Made by a program: the position numbers and the translations under genes. DNA of 64,000 bases from Eukaryota sp. TZLM1-RC (lineage: Eukaryota > Protista > Metamonada: BaSk clade): positions 3,906,001 to 3,970,000 of the forward strand of contig JAUPSS010000001.1 in the NCBI GenBank assembly GCA_040285825.1. Direction: 5' to 3'. Below are positions 7,335 to 53,333 of the stretch, piece after piece; positions within the stretch are counted from its first letter, which is position 1; every line of letters starts with the position of its first letter. The notes below the pieces were generated by a model. The model did not search any database and was not told the DNA's origin. It was given only the letters and a program-made list of their open reading frames with translations.

Positions 7335-9836
7335 ATGGATGTTTCCGACGGCTTCTTAACGACACGAACATTGACGAGCAATCAATTCGAACGCTTTCAT
7401 AGAACTCTTTTGAGAGCATGGAACCAAAACCAGAGAGAAGATGGAAGTGTTCTGTTTGGTGATCTTCTTCATCATTTTCAACAACAGAAACCTGGTGAAG
7501 AAGCTAAGGATTTGTTGCTATTAGCTGTTGCAAGAGGGGTCCACAAAGACATCCCATCACTTTACTCATATGCTGCAGAACCCAAAGAACACATTATACT
7601 CACTTTTCGCACTGATGAGGGGGAACTGCGATTTGAAATGCAGAAAGAAGCACCCTCCACAGCTCCACCAATGAAAGGTACCTCATTCTCCATTATGAAT
7701 GTGCCATATCAGAAGCCCGAGTTCTTTAACGAGTTTCCCACCCTTCTACTGAAGTATTTGGAACAAGAAGCACGTCTATTAGAGAAGTATCATTCAAACG
7801 TCTTACCCTTCATCAATTCAACAGGAACAGGTAAAACACGGTTTATGATTGAATCATGCAAGTCTATTCAGTCCAGAGATGATTTAGAAGCAGTATATTT
7901 CACGTTTCCTAGATTCTCAACGGAAGGTTCTGATTCAGTACTGAGGACAGATCCTCTTGCTACTGCTGATTTCACTGGTTACTTCCGCCAGTTAATGTAC
8001 AATGATTACACTGAAGATAGAAAGCAAAGGGTCCGCCGTATTGTTTTTGCCTGCCAGTGTTTGATGGCTTCTGCCCTGAAACTTGGTCAAAGCTATCAGA
8101 CTATGGAAAGGGAATACTTTGAAACACTACCAACCAGTATGGTGAACAAGGCAGGAGAGCTGTTCACAACATATTATACTTCTTCAGATAATATTGCTCT
8201 CCAAACTACCAATATGTTGAATTCACTATCCCTTTTAAATTCAACCAAATATGTTTTATTTTCAGATGAGGTTAGTTCACTTATTGGTACGAGTTTCGGA
8301 TCTATTCGCACCAAAGCCTACTTTAACGAGGCTAGTGATGGTTTGGATTGTGATTGGAATTTCTTCCGTTGTTGGCGACATGCTGCTAGAAACTTACTCC
8401 TATCAGGAATACAACTAATCGTAATTGTTGCTGGAACTCATACTGCTCTACATCACTTTTGTCATGATGTTGTCAAGTCCTTGTCCTATAGACCGTTTAC
8501 ACCTGGTAAAAATGACTATATGGTGGATGAAGTACGGAGCGGTACTACTTTACCCCCAATCTCTACTGGTTGGGTTCAGATTTTTGATGATTCTCTCCCT
8601 CTAACCCATAGAAGTCCTGATGTATCACCATTACTTTCCCTAGTCAATGCAGCTTCTTGTAGGCCATTGTGGGTTGCGTATGCACGTGATTCGATCAATT
8701 GGGGTTCTTTTGAACGTAAAATAGTTGAAAAAGCACAACACGCTTTCAGTGAAACCGATGTCGACCAGTACATGGCAGCCATACTTTCCGTCATTCTAGA
8801 AGGTACAGCAATCCATGAAACTGTGTTGACAAAGTTTGTACATTGTACATTTGCCATGGTTGATTTTACTTGTGCTCATATCGGAACAGAGCAGAAGTAC
8901 TTTTCGTTTCTGCTCCCAACCGTTGATCCATTGATTGCTCACTGTGGATGGCAGCTTCTCCTCCAGTTAAAGGATAATGAGTGGCAACATGAACTGACGA
9001 AGGTGCTGAGGGAATTGATAAGCACGCATGTTGCACCAACTACCTTTGGAATCTTGGTTGAACCAATTGCAGTAGCATTGCTGCTTTTTTTGTTTCAATT
9101 CCAAAGATCTCAACAACCACCAGAAAAAGTTAAATACTTTGTTAACTTGTATCCAATATTTTTGGAACATTTTTTGGCAGCATTTTGTACATCATATAAC
9201 ATACCCGAAGCACCCAGTGGTTGGACCTCTCCATGGGTTCTCTCAATTGCAGAATCAATGCTACTTCATGATAGGAGTGTTCTCACAGATAGTCGGTCTT
9301 TTTTCCTTTTACTCTTAGGTGCATTCATTTTCAGAACGATCGTCTTATTACCTGATAGAACTGAAGCCGTTGATGCAATCATTCCATTAATTCGTTCTAA
9401 CAATGATTCTTCAATCAGTCTTCCATCGCTGTTTGCAATCCAATCAGCCATTGAAAGTGGTAATGGTCACCAGTATCTTGGATACGTCAAGATTCAAATC
9501 AAAACCTCTACGACAGTTTCAACGAAACGGGTCTTTCAAAGCCTACGTTCAACACATTTTGGGTCACAAGCATGCTATAGTGTATGTTTGCTCTTATCAT
9601 TGGGTAATAGGAATGATCTAACTGCACCAGAGTTAACCTCATATCAATCAAATGAAGATCCTAGGGTTTACGTGGCAGATGAAGCAAAGTTTTCCATTGT
9701 CAAACAGGCAGTGATGACGTTGAAAAATGCCTTGGAGGTTCCTCAACACAAATTTCGAGTCAGAAACAATGGTGAAATTATTGATAAACCTTGGACTAAA
9801 GTAGAGAGCTTATCCCCTGAACATTCACCTAGTTAA
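7335..9836 (+). CDS. P-loop NTPase + restriction-endonuclease-fold protein (Crinkler/RHS-type), copy 1, 833 aa
   Basis: Walker A INSTGTGKTR, Walker B VLFSDE, IVIVAGT sensor-like strand, and C-terminal AVDAIIP...KIQIK (D...QxK nuclease-like motif). Confidence 0.8.
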   Translation: MDVSDGFLTTRTLTSNQFERFHRTLLRAWNQNQREDGSVLFGDLLHHFQQQKPGEEAKDLLLLAVARGVHKDIPSLYSYAAEPKEHIILTFRTDEGELRFEMQKEAPSTAPPMKGTSFSIMNVPYQKPEFFNEFPTLLLKYLEQEARLLEKYHSNVLPFINSTGTGKTRFMIESCKSIQSRDDLEAVYFTFPRFSTEGSDSVLRTDPLATADFTGYFRQLMYNDYTEDRKQRVRRIVFACQCLMASALKLGQSYQTMEREYFETLPTSMVNKAGELFTTYYTSSDNIALQTTNMLNSLSLLNSTKYVLFSDEVSSLIGTSFGSIRTKAYFNEASDGLDCDWNFFRCWRHAARNLLLSGIQLIVIVAGTHTALHHFCHDVVKSLSYRPFTPGKNDYMVDEVRSGTTLPPISTGWVQIFDDSLPLTHRSPDVSPLLSLVNAASCRPLWVAYARDSINWGSFERKIVEKAQHAFSETDVDQYMAAILSVILEGTAIHETVLTKFVHCTFAMVDFTCAHIGTEQKYFSFLLPTVDPLIAHCGWQLLLQLKDNEWQHELTKVLRELISTHVAPTTFGILVEPIAVALLLFLFQFQRSQQPPEKVKYFVNLYPIFLEHFLAAFCTSYNIPEAPSGWTSPWVLSIAESMLLHDRSVLTDSRSFFLLLLGAFIFRTIVLLPDRTEAVDAIIPLIRSNNDSSISLPSLFAIQSAIESGNGHQYLGYVKIQIKTSTTVSTKRVFQSLRSTHFGSQACYSVCLLLSLGNRNDLTAPELTSYQSNEDPRVYVADEAKFSIVKQAVMTLKNALEVPQHKFRVRNNGEIIDKPWTKVESLSPEHSPS

Positions 9837-11253: not shown

Positions 11254-11899
11254 TTAATCATTGGATGAATTTTTTTGTCAGTAGATTGTTTTGTTTTTCC
11301 TCAATGATTCAAATGTATGATCATTATCTTCAATGTTTTATTGAACGGTATTTTTATTGAGAAAAGAAATTCTATCTAGTATTCGATATAATCTTAATTT
11401 CTTTAATGTTGTTGGTGTAAAGAATTTTTTAAAAACGAAGAACTAAGTTTACTAAGTATGAGCTTATGTATAATTCAATCAGGTTAGTGCGGCATACCTC
11501 TTAATTTCAATTAAGTTTGGTTAAACAAATGAATACCTTTTTGGCTTCATACGACAAAGTAGGGTTTGATCAACACAGTGTCGATCAATCAGTAGATTGA
11601 ATTATATCACCTCTTAACACAATCGCTGCATCATCAATCATGCAACATAAACTTAAAAAAGAAAAAACATTCCTCTGTTGTATATCGTTTGCTTAAATTA
11701 AATTTATAAATTATTAAATAATTCCATTTGTTTTTGAGTGACAGAAATTATAGGAACAACAAACATGTAAACTCATCTACGTTAAAAAACCCATTGGTGA
11801 ATGTACTAGAAACAAGAACAGCTCCACAGAATGAAGTATAAATACCCACAAAGCTAAAACAGACCAAAAAACACTAAAGAATTAAATACAGGGAAACCC

Positions 11900-12210
11900 T
11901 CACCACTCCTCAAAAATCTTTAAAATCTCTGGCGTTGGTGCCTTATTGTGTGAAGAATCAGCTGGATATATCTCAAACAAAGAAGGATCACCTGCATGCT
12001 TTGGTTTTGGCCTAATGGGTGCAGTAACCTCTCTCCTTTTAAGAGAACCCCAATCAATTTCCCTAAAGAACTTGTGCCTCTTCACATCAGCTGCTCCACC
12101 ACGAAAGCATCCCAGTCTTCTGAACCAGTCATGCACAAGCAACCTTTGAATCAAATCACGAGTGATGGCATCGAAATGGGAAGGAATTGCAGTGGATTGT
12201 TCAGTATCAT
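11900..12210 (-). pseudogene. 3' fragment of the PKA-like kinase gene
   Basis: Nearly identical to 39739-40050 (RDLIQRLL...IFEEW); most of the kinase domain is absent. Confidence 0.9.
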
Positions 12211-12498
12211 TAATGGGAAGTTTTTGATTTGAGGTCATTGATTTGAATTGAATCAATGAATCAGGCTTGAAGCCACTAAGACTTGGCTCAATTTTTTTGA
12301 CCATACTCGGTTTCAATGGTTTTTTTTTGTCAAAATCTTCCTAATCTCGATATTCAACATTGTATTCTCAATACAAATTTCTCGGTTCAGTGCTTTTTGT
12401 TGTTTTTTTAGCTTACGCTTTGATGTTTGTTGGTCAAAAATCGCATTTCTAATAATTTTTGATGGATGAGTTAATTTCAAATTAGATCTTCTCTTTCT

Positions 12499-12540
12499 GG
12501 GACCAGGATTTGCTTCAACATCTTCATCTATTGTTAAATC
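12499..12540 (-). other. 2A-like (StopGo) peptide motif DLTIDEDVEANPGP
   Basis: Manual translation: GAT TTA ACA ATA GAT GAA GAT GTT GAA GCA AAT CCT GGT CCC, matching D(V/I)ExNPGP. Confidence 0.75.
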
Positions 12541-14484
12541 AACAGTAAATGGGTTTGTTGATAGAAGATGTTTGCAGCTTCTGGATTAACAACATAAATT
12601 ATAAACATAATAATCAAACTCAACATTATTAAAGTAACAATTTAAGACACAACATTCTGTATCTAAAGTGCAAATACCTAAACCACAAAAAACAACAAAA
12701 TAAAATACATTAAAATAACAATTTAAAACAAAATATAAACAAAGGAAACATCCCGTATCAAAGGTGATCAGCACCATATCTGATGTAACAGCACCCATAT
12801 CATGACTCACATAATGGCTGAAAAAAGTGCAATACTCTACCCCAACGGAAAAATCAGAACAATGATTCCGATAGGAAATCAAGGCTATCCTGTAAAACAG
12901 GATGACTGTTCCCGACTGAGGAGTTCGGGAGGAAGTACTCTGCTGTTCTTTGAAGAACAGGTTGAAGGAGGAGGTGGGAACTGAGTCCGTAACCTCGTCA
13001 TCCTTTTTCTCCTTTCGCTGCATGATGTCAGAAGAATGGGAAGAGTCAAGATAATCTCGCTGTCTGACACGATGCCTGACATGCTGATTGCGATTTCAAA
13101 TTCATTGCTTATTTCCACAATGGTATCAAATGCCTATCCACTGTATCTCTATTAGTGATCATCAACATCAGCTCGATTTACCCTCTAGCTCTTCTGGTCG
13201 TTGTTACTCCGTCTAAACTCTATGTTTTTTTCCAGTTTCCTTCTCCTTCCTTTACCTCTTGTTCTTTTCCCATTCAGCTATCTAAATAATTCTCTCTTCC
13301 AATCTCCCTCTCTATTTGGACGGGACCTAAACAAATGCTTATTTGGCCCAGAATCAACAAAATTCATAAGTGAGTAGATGGTCTATTGATTTCAGACGTC
13401 TCAAATTTACATGGACACAATGATGTTGAGTCCCCACACCTGGACCTAGTTGGATGTTTCACTTACAAAATCAGAGAACACAACAGAGACTGGTCATCTA
13501 TCTGAATGGAGAGACAGTAGGTGAGTAACCCTTTCAATTATCAGCAAAATCTGACAATTTATGTTGAAGCTTTTTACAACAAACCTGCAAATTAAAAAAA
13601 GATCGGTTTGGAATTTCTTGAATTGATTGGGGAAAACATTTGGTCCAGATTTGTGGTGGCAATCTATCGAGTTCACAAGATATCTCATTCAAATATGGAC
13701 TGCAGCTGGGAACTAACAGATGAGAATCTTCAGGAAATCTACGAGAAAATTCATAAATGAAGTTCTTGCCTCCACCCAATAATGCTGATTGACACAAAGT
13801 AGAAGATTTAGTAAATCCAAAATTACCCAAATTTGCTGAAGAAAATAAGTGATTTTTCAACACTTTTGGTTCTACAACCAATAAATCAGCAAGAAATCCG
13901 TTTTTGAATGAAGTTATGGAACGACAAAAAACTAATGCTATGGAAGGAGCGCAAGATCTCAAAACGATTGTTATTCTCCCAGTGTAGCAATTTTTAAGCA
14001 TGAAAATTTGAATATGTTTTTCTAAATCTAAAGAAGAATTTCAATCAAGGTTATTTTTCATTTTTTCCATTATAACTTGTAATTCATTCTAAATTCGAGG
14101 CACATTTTCTAACCCACAACCAAGAAACTTAAGAAAATCACTACTATAGTTAGTAATAGGGACAATTGTATCGTGTATCACAAGATCCTGAGCAGAAGGA
14201 CCATTCAGAAGGCATTTGCTCGCAATATGATGAAGCCCAACATTTTCATATGAATCAGCAATATCTTGTGCAAACAACTGCAGTAAATCAAATGAACCAA
14301 TCAAAAATATATCATCCATATAAGCAACTATTTTTAGGGAAGGGTGATTTTGCTTGATAACAACTAAAGTTTTGTGAATAGCTAAACAGAAGAATAATGG
14401 GCGTAAAGGATCACCTTGTTTTACACCAGAAGATGATTTTAAACCAAATGAATTAAATATTAAATCTGATGCTTTACCACAATA

Positions 14485-15584
14485 TGATGCCGTTAGGCAG
14501 AAATACCAAAGAAGTAAAGAGAGAAAAGAAGGTTTATTAATAGAAATACTTGTTTTTGAACAAGTGCCACGTCATCATGTAAATTCCTCATCTGTCTAGC
14601 AAGTTAGTTAATCAGTAACAACAACACTACTTCTTCCCATTTTCTTTCAACAGTTGCGTGAACCATTTAGCATAATGAAGAATGGGGATTTGTGAGATAC
14701 TGAGGCACGTGGCGTAAATGATTGACTTCGTGCTTAACTTTTGAGGGGCAATCACGAGCTAGATGACCTTTCTGGTGACATTTGAAACATGTCCCTTCAG
14801 TCAAATTGCGAGACCTATGGGATGAACGAGACTTCATACCAGCTTGACGCACAGAGTCGGTATTTTCAGAAACAGTCTTTGAAGACCTGTTCCAAGAAGC
14901 TACTCGCGTGCAATCAAGTAGTTCATCCTCTGCGGTATTTACCAATGTAGGAAAATCGGGGAATAACTCGTCCCGAATTCGAGAAATCAGAAATTTCTGC
15001 AGTCCTAATGGAAGAATACCCTTGGCGAATCTGATCATGAAGGCTGAGTCAGGCAATTTCAGTCCGGAAGTCCTGCTTTTCGCCTGAAAAAAACGTCTCA
15101 GGTAGCAGGACATACGTTCACGGACGTCGCCCTTACGGACATCAACCTTCAACTCAGACATCACCAAGTTGAATTCCTCGTACGAGGAAAACGAAGTGGA
15201 TGATCTTAAATGATCCAGAAACACCTCATCGGATGAATCGACTCTGAGTATTGTGAGAACCAATGATTCTAACAAGAAGGGGTCAACGAGGAGCCTTGCT
15301 GGAACAAGGTCCTTTTTCGGTGTAACAGAAGAGTACACCTTCCACTGTTGTAGGAACAACAGAACATCATCCACTTCCATAGAAGCAAATGACGGATGTA
15401 GTACGTGTGTAGATCACATCTGCAATGAGGGCCAATAATTATTGATGCCGTTAGGCAGAAATACCAAAGAAGTAAAGAGAGAAAAGAAGGTTTATTAATA
15501 GAAATACTTGTTTTTGAACAAATGCCACGTCATCATGTAAATTCCTCATCTGTCTAGCAAGTTAGTTAATCAGTAACAACAACA
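14485..15584 (-). mobile_element. 1.1-kb gag-only LTR element, type A
   Basis: 142-bp LTRs at 14485-14626 and 15443-15584 (1 mismatch); polypurine tract GAAAGAAAATGGGAAGAAGTAG; AATA TSD with the empty site visible near 49255; no pol. Confidence 0.93.
14667..15380 (-). CDS. gag: Gag-like protein with CCHC zinc knuckle, 237 aa
   Basis: CFKCHQKGHLARDC; the only substantial ORF between the LTRs. Confidence 0.85.
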   Translation of the reverse strand: MEVDDVLLFLQQWKVYSSVTPKKDLVPARLLVDPFLLESLVLTILRVDSSDEVFLDHLRSSTSFSSYEEFNLVMSELKVDVRKGDVRERMSCYLRRFFQAKSRTSGLKLPDSAFMIRFAKGILPLGLQKFLISRIRDELFPDFPTLVNTAEDELLDCTRVASWNRSSKTVSENTDSVRQAGMKSRSSHRSRNLTEGTCFKCHQKGHLARDCPSKVKHEVNHLRHVPQYLTNPHSSLC

Positions 15585-16811
15585 AATAGTGGTGGAAAAA
15601 ACTTGGCAGCTCAGGAAAATTAGATTTAATTACCACAAAAATTGCTTTTCGTTTTACAGAAATAAAAGCACTTTTGCAGTCCAGAATAAAAATAAAATTA
15701 TTATCCCCTTCGTAAAATCGTTTCTTCTTAATTGTATCAACAATGGTAATTCTTTGCAATGCTACAGCCATTACCTATTTTACAAACCCACCAAAGTTGA
15801 GGGTTTACCTAATATTGTTGTTTATATTTTTGGTTTTAACGACAACTTTTTTTCATTAACATTAATAGTAAGGTATTTGTTCAAGGATGAGTAGAATAAG
15901 TGATTTTTTTGGAAGATCAAATGCTCAAAACAATGTGACACTTGATTCTTTGATCGAACTAATATTGCAGAAGAGCCAATATATATTTGTTGTGTATCAA
16001 AGGGAACTCAGAATTATTATATTGGTCAAAGCTTCATTTAGTTTTTCAAAACAAGTAATCTGTATTCCACTATGTTGCAGCTTTTGTCAATTGTAGCAAT
16101 AACACCATTGATTGTTTTGAATGTTGATTTTTGGGGCATGTGTTGGTCACGTGTTTTTATTTCAAAAATAGTGGCGAAAACTGAACAAATTTGAAATTAA
16201 AAAGGATACCCTATTTCACTGGTCTGATAGTCGGCGATTTCAAACGCTCTGAAGAGTTTTATTCAATAACATGGCAGTCATCAAAAGAGTCATCAATCAT
16301 ATTCAAGCAGGTTTGAATAAATGATGAAATAAAACGGTTTACAGTCTCTGTGAAAATGTAATAGTTGTCAACCAAATCATTCAATAAACGACATGCACAC
16401 AGACAATTGGTAAGTCCCTTTTACTCAAAAGGAAGATTTAATGCATCACGTGATCAACAATAATAAAGTTCTCAGTATCAGAAGAATTTCTTAAAGTTGA
16501 TTGATTCAAAATTTACCCACTACTTTATTTTTGTTACAACAGAATTCATGAAATGATAACCAAAATACTGTTTTAATGAGGAAGAAATATAAAAGATCGT
16601 CGACTCAAGAGATTTGCTGATTAAATACAAATTTATTTTAATTTAAATTTAATTTGTATTTAATTTGTATTGAGGATATTTAGTTCAAATTTGATTTAGT
16701 TTCAACAAAATCGTTTTTCAACACTAGAAAACCGTTTAGGTCTACAGTTCTACCTTTAAAAGATACTTAGCCTCAAACGTCGACAACATATTCATCTCAA
16801 CACTGCTCCTC

Positions 16812-19319: not shown

Positions 19320-21269
19320 TTTCAGGAATAAAGCTAAACTTTATCTTTTATTTAACAAACCCACACCAATTCTATGATGAGTGATTCTGAAGACTTTTTT
19401 TTGGTTACAATCCATTTACATACATCAATTGTTAAACTTGTGTTAAGTTCCCTAAATTGAAGCAGTGCACAAAGGTCACAATAAGAGACAGTCCATTTGA
19501 ATTGTCACACAAAATTCTTGAACAACATTAATAAACCTCAAAGACATCATCCATGTAATGTTATTGATTCACTACAATGCACTGTCTTGCTGCGGTTGAC
19601 AACAGAGCACCTGCGAATAGTTTCCTGCTCTTCCAACAAATAGTAATAGTGATTTCTTGCTGTACTGCTCACTCGTTCAGGTAGAGACCTCTTCTGTCTA
19701 CGATGTCCTTCCACTATGTAGCCCTCCTCCTTGTTTGCCCGATCACATCTCCTGAACTTTGAACGAATAGAAGTTTGTGCTGGAGAGAACTGCCCACGAT
19801 TTAAGGAGGAAAACACGGTCATGCATGATCTGTTTATATCAGGGGGTGTAATGTGAAGGATCACGCTTCTAACCAGAACCACTCCATGCAGTGGTTTTCA
19901 ACCGAAATTGAGTCTGTTCCATCCATTATGGACCACCCTTATGCTCTCTTGAATGGGCCCTTTTAACATTTTGAATAATTTTCCTTGCTTCAACTCTGGT
20001 TGATTCCCTTAGAAGTCGGCTCAAAAATGATTAATTCAGTTTAAGAATTAACCAAATTTGTTTTCTCACTTGCTGTTGTTTATTCTTGAAATGGCTGACT
20101 CCGATCAATCGGTCAATTTGCACTTGGTTGCTGTTAACTTTTCCATTGAATTTCTATTTATTTTTATTTTTATTCTCTATTTAACTGTTTTAATCGTTTT
20201 TTCTTAATTTCATCATCAGTGGTATTTTTTGGCAACAGTACAATTATAATTTTTTTAATAACAAACCCACCAAAGTTGAGGGTTTAACTAATATTGTTGT
20301 TTATATTTGTGGCCATAACGGTATTTATATTACATTAACACTAATGGTAAAGTATTTGTTCAAGGATGAGTAGAATAAGTGAATTACATGGAAGATCAAC
20401 TGCTCAAAACAATGTCATATTTCATTTTTGATCGAATTAATGTTGCAGAAGAGCCAATTAATCAAATCGAATGATGGCTACTGAAATACCTATATTATGC
20501 TTCATTGCATAACTATCTTCGTAAAAATCACTTATTCTGCTCAACTTACCCCACACAAAAACTTTACCATTGTTGTCAATGTCAGCATAAATACCATTGT
20601 GACCACTAATAGAAACCACATTAGTTAAACCTTGAACTTTGATGGGTTTGTTATTAATAGAAGTTGCATTCAGTATTCTAAAACTGTTCATTTTCACATA
20701 CTCATTGGATGAATTTTTTTGTCAGTAGATTGGTTTGTTTTTCTTCAATGATTCAAATGTATGATCATTCTCTTTAATGTTGTTGGTGTAAAGAATTTTT
20801 TAAAAACGAAGAACTAAGTTTACTAAGTATGAGCTTATGTATAATTCGATCAGGTAAGTGCGGTATACCTCTTAATTTTAATTAAGTTTGGTTAAACAAA
20901 TGAATACCTTTTTGGCTTCATACGACAAAGTAGGGTTTATCAACACGTTGTCGATCAATAATTAGATTGAATTATATCACCTCTTAACACAATCGCTGCA
21001 TCATCAATCATGCAACATAAACTTAAAAAAGAAAAAACATTCCTCTGTTGTATATCGTTTGCTTAAATTAAATTTAGAAATTATTAAATAATTCCATTTG
21101 TTTTTGAGTGACAGAAATTATAGGAACAACAAACATGTAAACTCATCTACGTTAAAAAACCCATTGGTGAATGTACTAGAAACAAGAACAGCTCCACAGA
21201 ATGAAGTATAAATACCCACAAAGCTAAAACAGACCAAAAAACACTAAAGAATTAAATACAGGGAAACCC

Positions 21270-21866: not shown

Positions 21867-21908
21867 GGGACCAGGATTTGCTTCAACATCTTCATCTATT
21901 GTTAAATC
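21867..21908 (-). other. 2A-like motif, duplicate copy
   Basis: Identical to 12499-12540 at offset 9368. Confidence 0.75.
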
Positions 21909-38263: not shown

Positions 38264-38269
38264 TAATAT

Positions 38270-42010: not shown

Positions 42011-44518
42011 TTAACTAGGTGAATGTTCAGGGGATAAGCTCTCTACTTTAGTCCAAGGTTTATCAATAATTTCACCATTGTTTCTGACTCGAAATTTATG
42101 TTGAGGAACATCCAAGGCATTTTTCAACGTCATAACTGCCTGTTTGACAATGGAAAACTTTGCTTCATCTGCCACGTAAACCCTAGGATCTTCATTTGAT
42201 TGATATGAGGTTAACTCTGGTGCAGTTAGATCATTCCTATTACCCAATGATAAGAGCAAACATACACTATAGCATGCTTGTGACCCAAAATGTGTTGAAC
42301 GTAGGCTTTGAAAGACCCGTTTCGTTGAAACTGTCGTAGAGGTTTTGATTTGAATCTTGACGTATCCAAGATACTGGTGACCATTACCACTTTCAATGGC
42401 TGATTGGATTGCAAACAGTGATGGAAGACTGATTGAAGAATCATTGTTAGAACGAATTAATGGAATGATTGCATCAACGGCTTCAGTTCTATCAGGTAAT
42501 ATGACGACCGTTCTAAAAATGAATGCACCTAAGAGTAAATGGAAAAAAGACTGGCTGTCTGTGAGAACACTCCTATCATGAAGTAGCATTGATTCTGCAA
42601 TTGAGAGAACCCATGGGGAGGTCAAACCACTAGGTGCTTCGGGTATGTAATATGATGTACAAAATGCTACCAAAAAATGTTCCAAAAATAATGGATACAA
42701 GTTAACAAAGTATTTAACATCATTTGGTGGTTGTTGAGATCTTTGGAATTGAAACAAAAAAAGCAGCAATGCTACTGCAATTGGTTCAACCAAGATTCCA
42801 AAGGTAGTTGGTGCAACATGCGTGCTTATCAATTCCCTCAGCACCTTCGTCAGTTCATGTTGCCACTCATTATCCTTTAACTGGAGGAGAAGCTGCCATC
42901 CACAGTGAGCAATCAATGGATCAACAGTTGGGAGCAGAAAGGAAAAGAACTTCTGCTCTGTTCCAATATGAGCACAAGTAAAATCAACCATGGCAAATGT
43001 ACAATGGACAAACTTTGTCAACACAGTTTCATGGATTGCTGTACCTTCTAGAATGACAGAAAGTATGGCTGCCATGTACTGGTCGACATCGGTTTCACTG
43101 AAAGCGTGTTGTGCTTTTTCAACTATTTTACGTTCAAAAGAATCCCAATTGATCGAATCACGTGCATACGCAACCCACAATGGCCTACAAGAAGCTGCAT
43201 TAACTAGAGAGAGTAGTGGCGAAACATCAGGACTTCTACGGGTTAGAGGGAGAAAATCATCAAAAATCTGAACCCAACCAGTAGAGACTGGGGGTAAAGT
43301 AGTACCACTGCGTACTTCATCCACCATATAGTCATTTTCACCAGGTATATACGGTCTATAAGACAAGGACTTGACAACATCATGACAAAAGTGATGTAGA
43401 GCAGTATGAGTTCCAGCAACAATTACGATCAGTTGTATTCCTGATAGGAGTAAGTTTCTAGCAGCATGTCGCCAACAACGGAAGAAATTCCAATCACAAT
43501 CCAAACCATCACTAGCCTCGTTAAAGTAGGCTTTGGTGCGAATAGATCCGAAACTCGTACCAATAAGTGAACTAACCTCATCTGAAAATAAAACATATTT
43601 GGTTGAATTTAAAAGGGATAGCGAATTCAACATATTGGTAGTTTGGAGAGCAATATTATCTGAAGAAGTATAATATGTTGTGAACATCTCTCCTGCCTTG
43701 TTCACCATACTGGTTGGTAGTGTTTCAAAGTATTCCCTTTCCATAGTCTGATAGCTTTGACCAAGTTTCAGGGCAGAAGCCATCAAACACTGGCAGGCAA
43801 AAACAATACGGCGGACCCTTTGCTTTCTATCTTCAGTGTAATCATTGTACATTAACTTGCGGAAGTAACCAGTGAAATCAGCAGTAGCAAGAGGCTCTGT
43901 CCTCAGTACAGAATCAGAACCTTCCGTTGAGAATCTAGGAAACGTGAAATATACTGCTTCTAAATCATCTCTGGACTGAATAGACTTACATGATTCAATC
44001 ATAAACCGTGTTTTACCTGTTCCTGTTGAATTGATAAAGGGTAAAACGTTTGAATGATACTTATCTAATAGACGTTCTTCTTGTTCCAAATACTTCAGTA
44101 GAAGGGTGGGAAACTCGTTAAAGAACTCGGGCTTCTGATATGGCACATTCATAATGGAGAATGAGATACCTTTCATTGGTGGAGCTATGGAGGGTGCTTC
44201 TTTCTGCATTTCAAATCGCAGTTCCCCCTCATCAGTGCGAAAAGTGAGTATAATGTGTTCTTTTGGTTCTGTAACATATGAGTAAAGTGATGGGGTGTCT
44301 TTGCGAACGTAAACTCCTCTTTCAAAAGCTAATAGCAACAAATCCTTAGCTTCTTCACCAAGTTTCTGCTGCTGAAAATGATCAAGAAGATCACCAAACA
44401 GAACACTTCCATCTTCTCTCTGGTTTTGGTTCCATGCTCTCAAAAGAGTTCTATGAAAGCGTTCGAATTGATTGCTCGTCAATGTTCGGGTCGTTAAGAG
44501 ACCGTCAGAAACATCCAT
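42011..44518 (-). CDS. NTPase + REase-fold protein, copy 4, 835 aa
   Basis: Intact inverted paralog. Confidence 0.8.
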   Translation of the reverse strand: MDVSDGLLTTRTLTSNQFERFHRTLLRAWNQNQREDGSVLFGDLLDHFQQQKLGEEAKDLLLLAFERGVYVRKDTPSLYSYVTEPKEHIILTFRTDEGELRFEMQKEAPSIAPPMKGISFSIMNVPYQKPEFFNEFPTLLLKYLEQEERLLDKYHSNVLPFINSTGTGKTRFMIESCKSIQSRDDLEAVYFTFPRFSTEGSDSVLRTEPLATADFTGYFRKLMYNDYTEDRKQRVRRIVFACQCLMASALKLGQSYQTMEREYFETLPTSMVNKAGEMFTTYYTSSDNIALQTTNMLNSLSLLNSTKYVLFSDEVSSLIGTSFGSIRTKAYFNEASDGLDCDWNFFRCWRHAARNLLLSGIQLIVIVAGTHTALHHFCHDVVKSLSYRPYIPGENDYMVDEVRSGTTLPPVSTGWVQIFDDFLPLTRRSPDVSPLLSLVNAASCRPLWVAYARDSINWDSFERKIVEKAQHAFSETDVDQYMAAILSVILEGTAIHETVLTKFVHCTFAMVDFTCAHIGTEQKFFSFLLPTVDPLIAHCGWQLLLQLKDNEWQHELTKVLRELISTHVAPTTFGILVEPIAVALLLFLFQFQRSQQPPNDVKYFVNLYPLFLEHFLVAFCTSYYIPEAPSGLTSPWVLSIAESMLLHDRSVLTDSQSFFHLLLGAFIFRTVVILPDRTEAVDAIIPLIRSNNDSSISLPSLFAIQSAIESGNGHQYLGYVKIQIKTSTTVSTKRVFQSLRSTHFGSQACYSVCLLLSLGNRNDLTAPELTSYQSNEDPRVYVADEAKFSIVKQAVMTLKNALDVPQHKFRVRNNGEIIDKPWTKVESLSPEHSPS

Positions 44519-44987
44519 GAGGAGCTGTGTTGAGATGAATATGTTGTCGACGTTTGAGGCTAAGTATCTTTTAAAGGTTGAACTGTAAACCTAAACGGTT
44601 TTCTAGTGTTGAAAAACGATTTTGTTGAAACTAAATCAAATTTGAACTAAATATCCTCAATACAAATTAAATACAAATTAAATTTAAATTAAATTAAATT
44701 TGTATTTAATCAGCAAATCTCTTGAGTCGACGATCTTTTATATTTCTTCCTCATTAAAACAGTATTTTCGTTATCATTTCATGAATTCTGTTGTAACAGA
44801 AATAAAGTAGTGGGTAAATTTTGTATCAATCAACTTTAAGAAATTCTTCTGATATTGAACACTTTATTATTGTTGATCACGTGATGCATTAAATCTTCCT
44901 TTTGTGTAAAAGGGACTTACCAATTGTCTGTGTGCATGTCCTTTATTGAATGATTTGGTCAGCAACTATTACATTTTCACACAAACT

Positions 44988-45500
44988 TTTTTTTAAAACA
45001 CCTGGATTTTTATTCAACAACAAATATGAAATACACAATTACAACTCCACATCCTCAAAACCTGCCTCCCCTACATCAAAGCAATTAATTGCTAAACATT
45101 CAGAAAATTTCGCAAAAGAAGATAGTGAATCAGAAATTAGTTTTACCATTCCCTTAAAAATAGAAAATACAATAATGTTTTGCCAGTAAACACGATTGAA
45201 AATTCTTCCAGTTCTTTCCTTTACAACTACAACAAAATCCTCGAGGAAAGCCATAGCAGCCTTACCTAGAGATCCAAGCAAAGAAAAAACAAATGGACAT
45301 AAATTATATTGGGCATGAGAATTTTCATTAACCGAGGAAATGGGTTTCGCATATTTAGCAATTTTATATTTTTCGCCTGCAAGAAGAGGATTATTTACAT
45401 CCGAGTTAATTAGATGTTCGTTAGAGGAATTACAAGGGTCAATAGACATGGCATCCAAAATAGTAAAACTACCATTTAAACCAGGAACAAAAGAACTGTA
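44988..45500 (-). mobile_element. 5'-truncated RLE non-LTR insertion with A tail and 13-bp TSD (duplicate at 53803-54315)
   Basis: TTTCACACAAACT at 44975-44987 and 45501-45513; RLE motifs EKYKIAKY and PFVFSLLGSLG. Confidence 0.9.
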
Positions 45501-45518
45501 TTTCACACAAACTGTATA

Positions 45519-46350
45519 TGTTGTTGTCGAACTTAAATTGAATTAGTAGGTTTCTATGTATTTTGACTGATGACGTGATACTCGTTTATGAATCAGTTTT
45601 ATTAATAAACTTAGATTTCTCTCTCTCCCCTTCGTGTGTTCATCTGCCTAACGGCATCAATAATTATTGGCCCTTCTTATTTCAGATGACTGTTCCCTCT
45701 GTTAACCTGACGTCTCTTTCTTCCATGGAAGTTGAAAGTGTTCTTCTGTTCCTATAGAAGTAAAAGATTTATTCTTCGGTGACTCCTAAGAAAGAGCTTG
45801 TTCCAGCAAGACTCTTAGTCGATTCTTTTCTGTTAGAGTCCCTATCTCTCCAGAAATCCGACGTCTCATCCAGTGACGATGTTCTTCTCAAACATCTACA
45901 ATCTGTCGTATCGTTCGTCACGTACGAAGATTGTAGTCTGGCTATGTCAGAACTGAAGCTTGATGTCCGTATTGGTGACGTCCGAGAACGCATGTCCTGT
46001 TACCTGCGATGTTTCCTCCAGGTAAAAAGTAGGGCTTTCGGACTGAAGTTGCCAGACATAGCTTTTCTGAACCGATTTGCCAGAGGAATTCTTCCCGTAG
46101 GTCTCCAACGTTCTCATACCAACGATGCACCGGAGAATTTAACAAACATCATATCTTCCCTCTATTGAGCCAGTACTGTATTTGTCCTCAGAAAAATGGA
46201 AAAAAGTAGTGTTGTTGTCGAACTTAAATTGAATTAGTAGGTTTCTATGTATTTTGACTGATGACGTGATACTCGTTTATGAATCAGTTTTATTAATAAA
46301 CTTAGATTTCTCTCTCTCCCCTTCTTGTGTTCATCTGCCTAACGGCATCA
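45519..46350 (+). mobile_element. 832-bp gag-only LTR element, type B, decayed gag
   Basis: 141-bp LTRs at 45519-45659 and 46210-46350; PPT; TSD TATA/TAAA against the empty paralogous site CTG-TAAA-CCG; gag with stops and no knuckle. Confidence 0.9.
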
Positions 46351-47248
46351 TAAACCGTTTTATTTCATCATTTGTTCAAACCTGCTTGAATATGATTGAT
46401 GACTCTTTTGATGACTGCCATGTTATTGAATAAAACCCTTCAGAGCGTTTGAAATCTCCGACTATCAGACCAGTGAAATAGGGTATCCTTTTTAATTTCA
46501 AATTTGCTCAGTTTTCGCCACTATTTTTGAAATAAAAACACGTGACCAACACATGCTCCAAAAATCAACATTCAAAACAATCAATGATGTTATTGCTACA
46601 ATTGACAAAAGCTGCAACATAGTGGAATACAGAATACTTGTTTTGAAAAACTAAATGAAGTTTTGACCAATATAATAATTCTGGGTTCCCTTTGATACAC
46701 AACAAATATATATTGGCTCTTCTGCAATATTAGTTCGATCAAAGAATCAAGTGTCACATTGTTTTGAGCAGTTGATCTTCCAAAAAAATCACTTATTCTA
46801 CTCATGCTTGAACAAATACCTTACTATTAATGTTAATGAAAAAAAGTTGTCGTTAAGGCCAAAAATATAAACAACAATATTAGGTAAATCCTCAATTTTG
46901 GTGGGTTTGTAAAATAGGTAATGGCTGTAGCATTGCCAAGAATTACCATTGTTGATACAATTAAGAAGAAACGATTTTAAGAGGTAAACACAAAATTTAC
47001 AAAGAAAATCAACACTTAGATTTTATAAATACATCACTTCTTGAAAAGTTGAGCTTCGCCCAAATTTTTGTTAAAGAGTTTTTATGAACAATTAAGTTAT
47101 TACTTAATTGTTCAGTTGTATTATATCTAAACTTTAATCAAGAAGATTTTTTTGTACAGAAAAGTTTAAATTTTGAAATGAATGACATTTTTTTAATAAA
47201 GATATAGAAAAATTGTGTCGGATGTTAATATAATAAAATAAGTCAATT

Positions 47249-47390
47249 TGTTATAGTTACTGATAAATAAGGTTAGCAGTTATCTCAGGATTTCACTTGA
47301 TGACGTGGCACTCGTTGAAAAATGGGTTTCTTTATTAATAAACGCTCTTTTCTCTCTTTACTTCTTGGGTATTTCTGCCTAACGGCATCA
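47249..47390 (+). mobile_element. solo LTR (142 bp) with AATT TSD; duplicate at 56066-56207
   Basis: TGTT...CCTAACGGCATCA flanked by AATT on both sides. Confidence 0.9.
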
Positions 47391-47865
47391 AATTATGTCG
47401 ATTCTTCCTTGAATTTCACTATCTCTGCATTTTATTGATTGTAAATAATTGAACTTCCACAACTAACAAAATTACCAGAACCACCGTTTGGTCAAGGTAT
47501 GCTTTGATAGGAAGAGTGACACTGTTCATATCAGCTTGGATATCCTTGGAGGAGTCTTGTGATTGTTGGTTGTCCATTTTGCTTGAGAGATAAAGTTGTT
47601 AAAGATTTTCTTCAAACAATTCACAATTGTTGAACTTGCACACTTGATAAACTTATAACTAATGGGACGAAATTCATTGAATCAGGATTTCCTCTACAAT
47701 ATCTGGATCTGCTTGCTGTCTAGCTAAAGCTTCTCTAATTCGAGTCAAAAACCGAAACAATCTACTATTAATGGCAAATGGAATTCAAAAGCGCCAGAAA
47801 AAGATATCAAATCTTTTCATTGTTTATTCTTGAACCATTTTTTGGAAATCATTCAAAAAAGTTTC

Positions 47866-50213
47866 ATTTTGTGAAAGTCATTTTATCAGTATTTGAAAGG
47901 TTCTACAAAATGTTCGATTTGTGGTATCAGTGGACATAATTGGAGAACATGTCTTGAAAATCAAAACAAGAGAAATTGAATTAAAATCTGCTCAAAATAT
48001 TCTCCGATGTTCCGTTCCAGTCGTTGTCGATTTCAGTTGTACCGAATTCTGACGATTTTCATTCAAATGCTTTCAGTGCTCACTCTCCTTCCCCTTTTGA
48101 AAGCAATAATCTTTGTTGTCCATTCTGCAGAAAAGCCGTTACAGATTCAAGAAATGGTCAAAAACTTTTGTTTGTACCAATTGTAAAAGTGCTGTTACTG
48201 TTAGACCAGCAATTCAGATTCCAGTGGAAGTTGGTCCCGCCGGTACAATTCCTTTTTGAATGGAAATGTGAACTTTCACATCTAAATTATACAACATTTG
48301 TGGTTTTTTGTATAAACAGAAACTACGAAACAGAGAGGCGGTAATAATCACAGAAAAGTAGTTTTCTGTCAAGTTACACTTGTGATTACGTGGCATCACG
48401 TGATACTGTAACTACTAATCTAAATACTAATAATATCTATCTGAATTGGCTCTAAGCCTGCACATTGAGTGGAGTATTTCATCCTTTTGAAACTATTTTG
48501 CAAGAAAAACCAAAAAATGTTTTACGAATATTTTGGAATGAAAAAATTGGAAAATCAAAAGTTATCCGAAAGTTGTGCTTACGTGGTCGTTGTGGAGCTG
48601 CAACACAGGTCTTGTTTTCCTCTTCATTGCCTGATGGAAATTCTGAAACTCTTGAAAAACTTCAAAAATTGCATCCTCAAAAAAAATTTAAGTGTAGCAA
48701 GCCTGATGTTTGTTTTTTTGGATTGAAGTCCAATTTCTACAATTGAAATTTCCAACGCATTTAAAGAAAACCAAAAGGAAAAGCTGCAGGTTCATCTGGA
48801 ATTTCTTTTGATATTTTGAAAATAGCGGGCTCCAGTGCTCCTGAAATTGCTGAAAATCTTTTTAATTATTTTCAACAATTATTTGTTTTGAGAATTGACC
48901 CTCCTTTTGAATTATTAGCTGCACGTTTGATTGTTTTAGTAAAGCCAGGTAATCGAATTAAACCTGATGGTGTACGCCCCATTGCCGTTGGTGAATCTTT
49001 ATCTCGTTTGTTGGTATCGATTGTATTTGATCGAGTCAAAGACAAAGCTTCTAAATTTTTGAATCCTCATCAATTTGGAATTAAAACAAATGATGGTGCT
49101 TCTGTTATTGCTCTTGCATCTGATATTTTTTTAATCCAGGGGATAATAATTCAATTTTTAATCTGGACTGCAAAAATGCTTTTAATTCTGTAAAAGGAAA
49201 AGCAATTTTTGTGGTAATTAAATCTAATTTTCCTGAGCTGTCAAGTTTTTTCCACCACTATTGTGGTAAAGCATCAGATTTAATATTTAATTCATTTGGT
49301 TCACAATCATCTTCTGGTGTAAAACAAGGTGATCCTCTACGCCCATTATTCTTTTGTTTAGCTATTCACAAAACTTTAGTTGTCATCAAGCAAAATCATT
49401 CTTCCCTAACAATAGTTGCTCATATGGATGATATATTTTTGATTGGTTCATTTGATTTACTGCAGTTGTTTGCACAAGATATTGCTGATTCATATGAAAA
49501 TATTGGGCTTCATCATATTGCGAGCAAATGCCTTCTGAATGGTTCTGCTGCTCAGGATCTTGTGATACACGATACAGTTGTTTCTATTACTAACTATAGT
49601 GGTGATTTTCTTAAGTTTCTTGGTTGTTGGTTAGAAAATGTGCGTTGAATTTAGAATGAATTACAAGTTATAATGGAAAAAATGAAGAATGACCTTGATT
49701 TAAATTCTTCTTTATATTTAGAAAAACATATTAAATGTTTCACCCTTAAAATTGCTACACTGGGAGAATAACAATCGTTTTGAGATCTTGCGCTCCTTCC
49801 ATAGCATTAGTTTTTTGTCGTTCCTTAACTTCATTGAAAACAGAATTTCTTGCTGATTTATTGGTTGTAGAACCAAAAGTGTTGAAAAATCACTTATTTT
49901 TTTCAGCAAATTTGGGTAATTTTGGATTTACTAAATCTTCTATTTTGTGTCAATCAGCATTATTGGGTGGAGGCAAGAATTTCATTTATGAATTTTCTCG
50001 TAGATTCCCTCCGATTGCTCATCTGTTAATTCCCAGCTGCAGTCCATATTTGAATGAGATATCTTGTGAACTCGATAGATCGCCACCACAAATTTGGACC
50101 AAATGTTTTCCCCAATCAATTCAAGAAATTCCAAACCGATCTTTTTTAATTTGCAGGTTTGTTGTAAAAAGCTTTAACAATAATTGTCAAAGATTTTGGA
50201 AAGCTTGGATTTT
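47866..50213 (+). mobile_element. decayed CRE-like non-LTR element: N-terminal zinc motifs + RT
   Basis: CSICGISGHNWRTC (47911-47952), CPFC..CTNC, KLHP, GKAAGSSG, GVRPIAVGE, QFGI, GVKQGDPL, HMDD; many frameshifts. Confidence 0.88.
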
Positions 50214-51189
50214 TTTTTCAGAATTTTATTTTTATTCATCAACAAATATGAAATACACAATTAAAACTCCACATCGTCAAAACCTGCCTCCCCTACATCA
50301 AAACAATTAATTGCTAAAGATTCGGAAAATTTCCCAAAAGAAGATAGTGAATCAGAAATTAGTTTTACCATTCCCTTAAAAATAGAAAATACAATCCTGT
50401 TTTGCCAGTAAACACGATTGAAAATACTTCCAGTTCTTTCCTTTACAACTACAACAAAATCCTCAAGGAAAGCCATAGCAGCCTTACCTAGAGATCCAAG
50501 CAAAGAAAAAACAAAGGGACATAAATTATATTGGGCATGAGAATTTTCATTAACCGAGGAAATGGGTTTCGCATATTTAGCAATTTTATATTTTTCGCCT
50601 GCAAAAAGAGGATTATTTACATCCGAGTTAATGAGATGTTCGTTAGAAGAATTACAAGGGTCAATAGACATGGCGTCTAAAATAGTAAAACTACCATTTA
50701 AACCAGGAACAACTAGATCACCTCTAGTCAGACCCATAGAAGCTCTGTTGTAATGCGTACTATCAATATTGGGATCATCAAGAATTAATTTTGATAACAG
50801 CGGTTCTAAAAAGGAATCTACTCGATATAATTTGCACATTACATAAATGTGGTCCCTGACGTTATTATGCACTTTGCTTCTAAACGTAATGAAATGTTTA
50901 CAGTTCAAAAGATGAGTAAACAAAAGAGGTTTACCACATTTACAAGTTAAATGATTGGGCAAATTGTTTAGCCACAGAAAACAACGAAAACGCATGTTTA
51001 GAAGCCATTCATTGTTTTTTAACAAAAGTCCATAAACAGAGGGAACTTGAGTTACTAAAGCAGCAGCAGAACTATCACGAATATCCTTTAAAAAATTACC
51101 GAAAGCGGGATTTTTAGTTTTGGCCAAGCCAAGTATTACTTCATAATCCAAGCCTTCATATAATTTAACCAGATGGTGCTGAAGCTTTT
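50214..51189 (-). mobile_element. 5'-truncated RLE non-LTR insertion with open RLE frame
   Basis: CKCG..HLLNC, RSKVHN, EP, RGDL, EKYKIAKY; T9 (A tail) at 50210-50218. Confidence 0.9.
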
Positions 51190-53333
51190 TGGTGACCATT
51201 ACCTCTTTCAATGGCTGATTGGATTGCAAACAGTGATGGAAGACTGATTGAAGAATCATTGTTAGAACGAACTAATGGAATGATTGCATCAACGGCTTCA
51301 GTTCTATCAGGTAATATGACGATCGTTCTGAAAATGAATGCACCTAAAAGTAAATGGAAAAAAGACTGGCTATCTGTGAGAACACTCCTATCATGAAGTA
51401 GCATTGATTCTGCAATTGAGAGAACCCATGGGGAGGTCAAACCACTAGGTGCTTCGGGTATGTAATATGATGTACAAAATGCTGCCAAAAAATGTTCCAA
51501 AAATAATGGATACAAGTTAACAAAGTATTTAACATCATTTGGTGGTTGTTGAGATCTTTGGAATTGAAACAAAAAAAGCAGCAATGCTACTGCAATTGGT
51601 TCAACCAAGATTCCAAAGGTAGTTGGTGCAACATGCGTGCTTATCAATTCCCTCAGCACCTTCGTCAGTTCATGTTGCCACTCATTATCCTTTAACTGGA
51701 GGAGAAGCTGCCATCCACAGTGAGCAATCAATGGATCAACAGTTGGGACCAGAAACGAAAAGTACTTCTGCTCTGTTCCAATATGAGCACAAGTAAAATC
51801 AACCATGGCAAATGTACAATGGACAAACTTTGTCAACACAGTTTCATGGATTGCTGTACCTTCTAGAATGACAGAAAGTATGGCTGCCATGTACTGGTCG
51901 ACATCGGTTTCACTGAAAGCGTGTTGTGCTTTTTCAACTATTTTACGTTCAAAAGAATCCCAATTGATCGAATCACGTGCATACGCAACCCACAATGGCC
52001 TACAAGAAGCTGCATTGACTAGGGAAAGTAGTGGCGAAACATCAGGACTTCTACGGGTTAGAGGGAGAAAATCATCAAAAATCTGAACCCAACCAGTAGA
52101 GACTGGGGGTAAAGTAGTACCACTGCGTACTTCATCCACCATATAGTCATTTTTACCAGGTGTAAACGGTCTATAAGACAAGGACTTGACAACATCATGA
52201 CAAAAGTGATGTAGAGCAGTATGAGTTCCAGCAACAATTACGATCAGTTGTATTCCTGATAGGAGTAAGTTTCTAGCAGCATGTCGCCAACAACGGAAGA
52301 AATTCCAATCACAATCCAAACCATCACTAGCCTCGTTAAAGTAGGCTTTGGTGCGAATAGATCCGAAACTCGTACCAATAAGTGAACTAACCTCATCTGA
52401 AAATAAAACATATTTGGTTGAATTTAAAAGGGATAGCGAATTCAACATATTGGTAGTTTGGAGAGCAATATTATCTGAAGAAGTATAATATGTTGTGAAC
52501 ATCTCTCCTGCCTTGTTCACCATACTGGTTGGTAGTGTTTCAAAGTATTCCCTTTCCATAGTCTGATAGCTTTGACCAAGTTTCAGGGCAGAAGCCATCA
52601 AACACTGGCAGGCAAAAACAATACGGCGGACCCTTTGCTTTCTATCTTCAGTGTAATCATTGTACATTAACTTGCGGAAGTAACCAGTGAAATCAGCAGT
52701 AGCAAGAGGCTCTGTCCTCAGTACAGAATCAGAACCTTCCGTTGAGAATCTAGGAAACGTGAAATATACTGCTTCTAAATCATCTCTGGACTGAATAGAC
52801 TTACATGATTCAATCATAAACCGTGTTTTACCTGTTCCTGTTGAATTGATAAATGGTAAAACGTTTGAATGATACTTATCTAATAGACGTTCTTCTTGTT
52901 CCAAATACTTCAGTAGAAGGGTGGGAAACTCGTTAAAGAACTCGGGCTTCTGATATGGCACATTCATAATGGAGAATGAGATACCTTTCATTGGTGGAGC
53001 TATGGAGGGTGCTTCTTTCTGCATTTCAAATCGCAGTTCCCCCTCATCAGTGCGAAAAGTGAGTATAATGTGTTCTTTTGGTTCTGTAACATATGAGTAA
53101 AGTGATGGGGTGTCTTTGCGAACGTAAACTCCTCTTTCAAAAGCTAATAGCAACAAATCCTTAGCTTCTTCACCAAGTTTCTGCTGTTGAAAATGATCAA
53201 GAAGATCACCAAACAGAACACTTCCATCTTCTCTCTGGTTTTGGTTCCATGCTCTCAAAAGAGTTCTATGAAAGCGTTCGAATTGATTGCTCGTCAATGT
53301 TCGGGTCGTTAAGAGACCGTCAGAAACATCCAT
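51165..53333 (-). pseudogene. NTPase + REase-fold protein, copy 5, C-terminally truncated by a non-LTR insertion
   Basis: Homology stops at GNGHQ (51190), just before KIQIK; retroposon sequence follows. Confidence 0.85.

What the first reader, a model, noticed from the sequence alone, without database searches (positions are those of the whole stretch)
7335..53333. Five-copy expansion of a Crinkler/RHS-type NTPase-nuclease gene embedded in retroelements
Seen: five near-identical intronless paralogs (3 intact, 1 nonsense, 1 truncated) with Walker A/B and a C-terminal D...QxK motif. It is the only long intact ORF inside the amplified units. Known: header + NTPase + REase is the architecture of CR (Crinkler/RHS) effectors, linked to toxin, counter-invader or transposon-like roles; trypanosome RHS genes are retrotransposon insertion hot spots. 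Inference: a birth-and-death conflict/defence locus, or a selfish nuclease unit that promotes local rearrangement.
Basis: partly seen in the sequence, partly recalled or inferred. Interest (0 to 1): 0.72.

Follow-up and report, generated by a model that had tools for sequence, protein, structure and literature searches.

The report
Chromosome-bound ATPase-nuclease gene family expansion
A free-living protist carries five nearly identical copies of a gene predicted to encode an ATP-switched DNA-cutting protein of the Crinkler/RHS type; the copies were likely multiplied passively by retrotransposon-bounded duplications, and in related genomes close copies of this family nearly always sit on the same contig, unlike the retrotransposons.

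Summary
The five copies are real: three intact, one with an early stop, one cut at codon 715 (97.0-99.2% nt identity). Copy-private alleles of A, B and C appear in short-read contigs. The NTPase part is under purifying selection (omega 0.23-0.29). The model gives an ORC/STAND/TnsC-like AAA+ domain (Z up to 10) and a C-terminal domain whose best matches are PD-(D/E)xK nucleases (Z 4-5, weak), with E...D...QxK conserved. This is the CR (Crinkler-RHS) architecture, but no Crinkler or RHS Pfam family matches, so membership stays unproven. Sequence relatives were found only in skoliomonads, Dysnectes and Kipferlia. The copies are not a clean transposon: their ends differ, fall at retroelement debris, inside a neighbouring kinase exon, or inside the gene itself. 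Copy E arose at a retrotransposon insertion flanked by a 7.9-kb duplication. The unexpected result lies outside the window: close paralogs are dispersed yet confined to one contig (11 of 12 extra loci, 1.4 expected), while retroelement controls spread over 5-7 contigs. Verdict: new member of a known kind, likely passively amplified; the contig confinement deserves a whole-genome test.

The parts
7335..9836 (+). Copy A, intact, 833 aa; upstream region cut at 7072 by an LTR/gag fragment
16812..19319 (+). Copy B, intact, 835 aa (reference for residue numbers)
16812..17261 (+). N-terminal header (residues 1-150), fastest-changing part, model confidence under 50, no signal peptide-like hydrophobic stretch
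17298..17321 (+). Walker A, NSTGTGKT (B 163-170)
   Evidence: G166, G168, K169 in 22 of 22 rows with a residue
17748..17753 (+). Walker B, D313-E314
   Evidence: D in 24 of 24, E in 21 of 24
18489..19286 (+). Predicted PD-(D/E)xK nuclease domain (B 560-825) with E578, D682, Q723, K725
26184..28691 (+). Copy C, stop at codon 51; 721-aa frame from 26526; homology ends at 28972 beside a weak non-LTR fragment
42011..44518 (-). Copy D, intact, 835 aa; lies tail to tail with the complete kinase gene, likely the parent locus
51190..53333 (-). Copy E, cut at codon 715, lacks QxK
50228..51189 (-). 5'-truncated non-LTR (RLE-type) retrotransposon piece with poly(A), sitting between two 7.87-kb direct repeats
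42375..50225 (.). 7.87-kb block duplicated at 51190-59061 (98.9%)
11400..19641 (.). 8.2-kb block duplicated at 20771-28972 (98.2%); tandem period about 9.37 kb
38957..40050 (+). PKA-like protein kinase gene (kinase ORF to last exon); its 3' part from 39739 is copied, inverted, into units A and B
11900..12210 (-). Orphan 3' exon piece of the kinase in unit A (second copy 21270-21580)
14485..15584 (-). gag-only mini LTR element, 142-bp LTRs, 4-bp target duplication AATA (second copy 23853-24952)
45006..45490 (-). Non-LTR insertion with poly(A) and about 13-bp target duplication, 470 bp upstream of D (copy 53821-54305 upstream of E); absent from B and C
45519..46350 (+). Second mini LTR element, 141-bp LTRs (copy 54334-55165)
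6747..7072 (-). LTR plus gag fragment forming the 5' breakpoint of unit A; high depth in short-read contigs
29492..37761 (.). Tandem array (2385-bp period) of non-LTR retrotransposon pieces between the inverted arrays

Best explanation
The gene is predicted to encode an intracellular CR-type (Crinkler-RHS-type) protein in which an AAA+/STAND-like ATPase likely switches on a C-terminal PD-(D/E)xK nuclease, probably against invading DNA, and its five copies were likely made passively by retroelement-bounded segmental duplication. Order of events, inferred: the parent copy D lay beside the kinase gene; a block from inside the last kinase exon to a non-LTR piece upstream was copied in inverted orientation, then amplified in tandem (A, B, C; 9.37-kb period); later a non-LTR insertion resolved 7.87 kb from its priming site and left the broken copy E. 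Copies exchange sequence in their 3' halves; selection keeps the ATPase while the header drifts or diversifies. Shown: copies, breakpoints, motif conservation, purifying selection. Predicted: the two folds. Inferred: nuclease activity, ATP control, nuclear action, defence role.
For: Breakpoints: no two units share both ends; ends lie at an LTR/gag piece (7072), in a kinase exon (39739), at a weak non-LTR fragment (28972) and inside the gene (51190). The piece at 50228-51189 has poly(A) at an A-rich target, is high-copy, and continues differently past 51190 in runs X2 and X3, so 51190 is its 5' truncation point. L1-mediated duplications are described in PMC10760644 (passages). Selection: residues 151-460 carry 14 non-synonymous and 18 synonymous changes, omega 0.23-0.29, p 4e-5 to 6e-4. 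Fold: ORC3 Z 10.0 (rmsd 4.8, 220 aligned), BrxC 9.6, Cdc6/Orc1 9.5, Avs3 9.0, TnsC 8.9; C-terminal domain alone (pLDDT 78): 21 of 23 rows with 85 or more aligned residues are PD-(D/E)xK nucleases, top MspJI Z 5.2 (rmsd 4.9, 133 aligned) (fold assignment of the titles partly from recall). E578 17 of 18, D682 17 of 17, Q723 14 of 17, K725 15 of 17. No hydrophobic N-terminus. Header 81-83% versus rest 97% identical to the sixth paralog P0029; 85-87% versus 95-97% in the P0003 cluster. Informative sites: first 23 of 23 fit one tree, only 6 of the last 15 do.
Against: Nuclease Z-scores of 4-5 are within the range the tool calls common, and Foldseek gave no match under E 0.001. No Crinkler, RHS or nuclease Pfam hit. 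Purifying selection may date from before the duplications, so it does not show that extra copies are useful. Header versus rest difference in N/S ratio is not significant (p 0.11), and three of seven pairs in other clusters show no faster header. A permutation test for clustering of site patterns was negative (p 0.21). Passive duplication explains tandem copies but not by itself paralogs hundreds of genes apart on one contig. The defence role has no direct evidence.
Confidence: 0.6

Rival explanations
1. The gene is the engine of a mobile element that hops locally: the TnsC/MuB-like ATPase and the nuclease cut and relocate or copy the locus along its own chromosome.
For: Close paralogs are dispersed yet contig-confined: 11 of 12 extra loci on the same contig against 1.4 expected (p 3e-10; one event per cluster 5 of 6, p 6e-5), while three retroelement clusters lie on 5, 6 and 7 contigs. 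TnsC and MuB are among the fold matches. CR NTPase+REase modules are linked to transposons in PMC5289972 (passages). An old repeat flanks D on both sides, direct 81% over 304 bp and inverted 69% over 132 bp.
Against: In the window the copied units have no common ends, include kinase exon and retro debris, and one cuts the gene. The flanking repeat is far more diverged than the copies and is not used as a breakpoint. TnsC/MuB scores are tied with ORC and STAND proteins. Repeated inversions scattering tandem arrays would give the same confinement (mesosynteny, recalled; search listing only). The control comes from one genome, most confined clusters from two others.
Confidence: 0.15
2. Neutral passenger: a working single-copy gene sits in a retroelement-rich, unstable region and is copied and decays without any benefit from extra copies.
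For: 2 of 5 copies are broken; the kinase 3' exon and retro debris are carried along at similar identity (97.7-98.1% for the exon piece); the related genomes are 28-55% repetitive (PMC11316075, section 6).
Against: Separate subfamilies expanded independently in all three skoliomonad genomes and on many contigs; only 1 inactivating point change among 108 changes in the five copies.
Confidence: 0.12
3. Selfish toxin or drive gene like Medea1 or Spok: the nuclease kills progeny or sister cells that lack the chromosome's own subfamily, which would favour chromosome-specific lineages.
For: Medea1 combines CR-NTPase8 and CR-REase7 (PMC11342252, passages); Spok killing needs a nuclease domain (PMC12693581, passages); chromosome-specific subfamilies and variable headers.
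Against: No antidote gene or domain seen; no sequence link to the Medea-type families; no genetics or sex known to me for these protists.
Confidence: 0.08
4. Assembly artefact: haplotypes or repeats were laid out in tandem.
For: B-C and D-E differ by under 1%; the E junction is not bridged in low-depth contigs.
Against: Synonymous-enriched differences; private alleles of A, B, C and D/E in short-read contigs; the B/C-type empty insertion site is present in run X2; junctions carry poly(A) and target duplications. Run X1 may be from the material the window was built from.
Confidence: 0.05

Closest known systems
CR (Crinkler-RHS-type) NTPase + REase proteins (Zhang et al. 2016; paper not held, seen only through passages of PMC5289972)
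   Same: Variable header, P-loop NTPase, helical linker, REase-fold domain; occurrence in free-living eukaryotes; expansion among transposons. Atlas neighbours include a Mucoromycota cluster with Crinkler N-terminal domain in 87% of members (score 0.92) and Basidiomycota hypothetical proteins (0.97).
Trypanosome RHS (retrotransposon hot spot) proteins
   Same: P-loop protein family, many pseudogenes, retroelement insertions, unequal crossing-over and gene conversion (PMC7563717, passages).
   Different: RHS has a conserved N-terminus, variable C-terminus and one insertion site five codons behind the ATP/GTP motif; here the N-terminus is the variable part and the one coding insertion is at codon 715. 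Pfam RHSP not matched; Atlas lead only 0.83.
Oomycete/fungal CRN effectors
   Same: NTPase + REase is a common CRN C-terminal layout (PMC5289972 passages).
   Different: No LxLFLAK or HVLV motif, no PF20147 hit, no signal peptide-like stretch; relatives are from free-living bacterivores.
Tribolium Medea1 and CifB-related CR-NTPase8 + CR-REase7 elements
   Same: NTPase + REase on a mobile, selfish locus (PMC11342252 passages).
   Different: No sequence match; no enclosing DNA transposon found; no drive phenotype known.
Retrotransposition-mediated duplication (L1 in human genomes)
   Same: 5'-truncated, poly(A)-tailed insert at the junction of a rearrangement, without a short target duplication (PMC10760644 passages).
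   Different: Here the element is an RLE-type retrotransposon (assigned from motifs) in a protist genome.

Membership tests
CR (Crinkler-RHS-type) NTPase+REase | P-loop NTPase with Walker A and B | tested here: met
CR (Crinkler-RHS-type) NTPase+REase | C-terminal REase fold with catalytic E, D and QxK | tested here: met
   Motifs conserved, placed on helix and strands as expected; 21 of 23 long matches are such nucleases, but Z only 4-5
CR (Crinkler-RHS-type) NTPase+REase | Variable N-terminal header | tested here: met
   fold of the header not resolved (pLDDT under 50)
CR (Crinkler-RHS-type) NTPase+REase | Sequence kinship with a defined CR-NTPase or CR-REase family | tested here: inconclusive
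   Atlas features point to CR clusters; Pfam gives only generic AAA hits, best E 0.001; the defining profiles of Zhang 2016 were not available
CRN (Crinkler) effector | Ubiquitin-like header with LxLFLAK/HVLV motifs (PF20147) | tested here: not met
CRN (Crinkler) effector | Delivery into a host cell | not testable with these tools
   No signal peptide-like stretch; relatives free-living
Trypanosome RHS | Fixed retrotransposon insertion site just behind the ATP/GTP motif | tested here: not met
   None of 5 copies has an insertion there; one insertion at codon 715
Trypanosome RHS | RHS domain (PF07999) | tested here: not met
   No hit in 25 members at E up to 1 among the 25 of 30 families shown; none for the query
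DNA transposon | Shared precise ends, terminal inverted repeats, target duplication | tested here: not met
   (window copies only; distant loci could not be fetched)
DNA transposon | Dispersed near-identical copies | tested here: met
   but confined to one contig
Medea/Spok-type drive gene | Biased transmission with killing and rescue | not testable with these tools
   needs crosses or knockouts

The most novel reading that the evidence does not exclude
The metamonad NTPase-nuclease family is a self-propagating, chromosome-bound element: each chromosome lineage carries its own subfamily that spreads in cis along that chromosome, by local hopping or by breaks it induces, and rarely crosses to another. 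It would be a living link between transposon ATPase/nuclease modules and Crinkler/RHS effectors.
Probability: 0.18. Interest if true: 0.8.

Novelty: new member of a known kind. Interest (0 to 1): 0.42.

Why it matters
It extends CR-type NTPase-nuclease genes to free-living metamonads, with intact catalytic residues and repeated lineage-specific expansion; none of the 15 papers listed (of 120 matching) in a search pairing 'Crinkler' with metamonad names contained 'Crinkler'. Intact, intronless copies make the long-proposed nuclease and mobility roles of CR modules easy to test. The window also shows a clear retrotransposon-made 7.9-kb tandem duplication. If contig confinement is special to this family, it points to a cis-acting way of spreading.

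Tried and rejected
No whole genome is held, so flanks of the sixth paralog and control gene families could not be read. Zhang 2016 is not held. Word-based homolog searches reached only skoliomonad proteins. PDB sequence search gave nothing under E 0.37. A metagenome scan found 149 pattern matches and no relative. PADLOC gave no hit for the query. Viral fold search gave three low-TM matches to giant-virus ATPase-like proteins, not used. No RNA holder listed. Contig depth was too low to count copies, and the E junction had no cover. The gene's nuclease shows no profile similarity to the retrotransposon nuclease ORF, and E is out of frame with it, so a nuclease swap was rejected. The 416-bp inverted repeat at 10802-11218 first looked like a MITE, but similarity runs beyond its arms and its depth is low, so that label was dropped. 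The Fisher test printed was post hoc and mis-entered and is not used. The first tree run timed out; the FastTree result has long branches and is used only for the tight subfamilies. Two look-ups of earlier findings returned nothing.
Full report
Observation. The window holds five copies of one intronless gene: A 7335-9836, B 16812-19319 and C 26184-28691 on the plus strand, D 44518-42011 and E 53333-51190 on the minus strand. A, B and D are intact. C has a stop at codon 51 but keeps a 721-aa frame from 26526. E is cut at codon 715. Identity is 97.0-99.2%. Short-read contigs of coded runs carry letters private to A, B, C and to D/E: 35 of 35 in-gene variant letters shown match another copy (70 further rows were not shown). 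The empty insertion site typical of B and C is also present in run X2. Depth was too low to count copies and the E junction was not bridged.

The protein. Relatives named by their sources come from Eukaryota sp. TZLM1-RC, TZLM3-RCL and GEM-RC1 (skoliomonad metamonads, PMC11316075, section 6 and passages), Dysnectes and Kipferlia. A full scan of 1.84 billion representatives gave 26 hits, eight of which stayed unnamed. In the 25-row alignment Walker A G-x-G-K is invariant in 22 of 22 rows with a residue, Walker B D in 24 of 24, and E578, D682, Q723 and K725 hold in 17 of 18, 17 of 17, 14 of 17 and 15 of 17. The model (pLDDT 74.7) matches ORC/Cdc6, BrxC, STAND and TnsC/MuB ATPases over residues 118-540 at Z 8-10, with these groups tied. 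The C-terminal domain folded alone puts E578 on a helix, D682 at the start of one strand and QxK at the end of the next. Its long matches are PD-(D/E)xK nucleases in 21 of 23 rows, though only at Z 4-5, and Foldseek's best row, MspJI, is not significant. The header is unresolved and has no hydrophobic leader. The Atlas places the protein near Basidiomycota hypothetical proteins and a Crinkler-header cluster. Pfam finds no Crinkler or RHS domain. It therefore has the CR layout described in PMC5289972 (passages) and likely works like a CR protein; family membership is open.

Selection. Among the five copies the NTPase part has 14 non-synonymous and 18 synonymous changes (omega 0.23-0.29, p at most 6e-4). 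The nuclease part is weaker (0.39-0.51, p 0.02-0.09). The header is near neutral (0.57-0.77) and changes 2.4 times as often per codon, but the N/S contrast is not significant (p 0.11). The sixth paralog P0029 differs by 17-19% in the header and 3% elsewhere; the same pattern holds in the P0003 cluster and in one P0006 pair, not in three other pairs. The first 23 informative sites fit one tree, only 6 of the last 15 do, which suggests gene conversion; the clustering test was negative.

How the copies arose. D lies tail to tail with a complete PKA-like kinase gene. Units A and B carry the kinase's 3' part from 39739, inverted, so the copied block cut through an exon and D is likely the parent. 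A, B and C form a tandem array of about 9.37-kb period; A ends upstream in an LTR/gag fragment and C ends downstream beside a weak non-LTR fragment. D and E share a non-LTR insertion with poly(A) and a 13-bp target duplication, plus a mini LTR element, upstream of the gene; B and C lack both. E is the clearest event: a 5'-truncated, poly(A)-tailed, high-copy non-LTR piece (50228-51189) sits between 7.87-kb direct repeats, its tail at an A-rich site and its 5' end at codon 715. This fits an insertion that resolved at a distant break, as described for L1 (PMC10760644, passages). No two units share both ends, and no near-identical terminal repeats surround the gene. The evidence inside the window favours passive amplification.

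The unexplained pattern. Of eight family clusters at 90% identity with two or more members, seven lie on a single contig (contigs told apart by length), often hundreds of locus tags apart, for example RCL1_002766 to 003395. Three retroelement clusters from the window spread over 5, 6 and 7 contigs (15 members listed of 42, 15 and 86). After merging neighbours and dropping one tandem and one dependent cluster, 11 of 12 extra loci share the contig against 1.4 expected; counting one event per cluster gives 5 of 6 (p 6e-5), or 4 of 5 without the window's cluster (p 4e-4). Tandem duplication followed by inversions would produce this, and the window itself shows an inverted copy; local hopping would too. 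The control comes from one genome and consists of retroelements, not ordinary genes, so the question is open.

Mechanism and odds. Most likely (0.6): an intracellular ATP-gated nuclease, probably against invading DNA, multiplied by retroelement-bounded duplication and turned over by birth and death (24 of 50 fetched family proteins are near full length). Rivals: local-hopping element 0.15, neutral passenger 0.12, Medea-like drive 0.08 (PMC11342252 and PMC12693581, passages), artefact 0.05. Activity, target and role are inferred, not shown.

Comparison and verdict. It is not a CRN effector (no LxLFLAK header) and not a trypanosome RHS gene (no fixed insertion site behind the P-loop; PMC7563717, passages). 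A selfish role for a Crinkler-like gene in free-living eukaryotes is already claimed for AACRNL (PMC12957317, abstract only). The finding is a new member of a known kind, interest 0.42, with a 0.18 chance of the bolder reading. Zhang 2016 and its supplements were not seen and may bear on novelty.

Noticed in passing
window 12522 and 21890 (minus strand), in the spacer 12211-13544: A 2A-like ribosome-skip motif (DVExNPGP) in a short broken frame, probably from the 5' part of a non-LTR element; such motifs are reported in trypanosome and animal non-LTR elements (PMC3708506, search listing with abstract start).
   Followed up: partly
window 14485-15584, 23853-24952, 45519-46350, 54334-55165: Mini LTR elements of 0.8-1.1 kb with 141-142-bp LTRs and only gag; the gag cluster has 42 members. 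Likely non-autonomous but active.
   Followed up: partly
P0004, P0005, P0043, P0022 and P0008: Four proteins of one subfamily, 67-97% identical where compared, all end at the same residue just before the nuclease domain, and a nuclease-only ORF (P0008) lies on the same contig as three of them: possibly a split two-gene form.
   Followed up: no
window 29492-37761: About 3.5 tandem units of 2385 bp (98-99.5%) made of inverted non-LTR pieces; a similar chimeric ORF (P0077) exists on another contig.
   Followed up: no
window 40605-41164 and 46709-47008: An old low-copy repeat flanks copy D as both a direct (81%) and an inverted (69%) pair; nature unknown.
   Followed up: partly
P0037 (RCL1_002824) and P0095 (RCL1_002826): Members of two very distant subfamilies lie two locus tags apart on one contig.
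   Followed up: no
P0013: A B-box zinc-finger Pfam hit (E 5e-6) occurs in one of the 25 aligned members; by its Cys/His-rich N-terminus it is likely P0013, a header swap.
   Followed up: no
window 1-4416 (minus strand): Degraded Ty3/gypsy-like element with protease and reverse transcriptase pieces.
   Followed up: no
window 5108-5178: tRNA-Gly(TCC) gene among non-LTR fragments.
   Followed up: no
window 59556-60700: WW-domain gene with a 78-bp tandem repeat of about 8.6 units.
   Followed up: no
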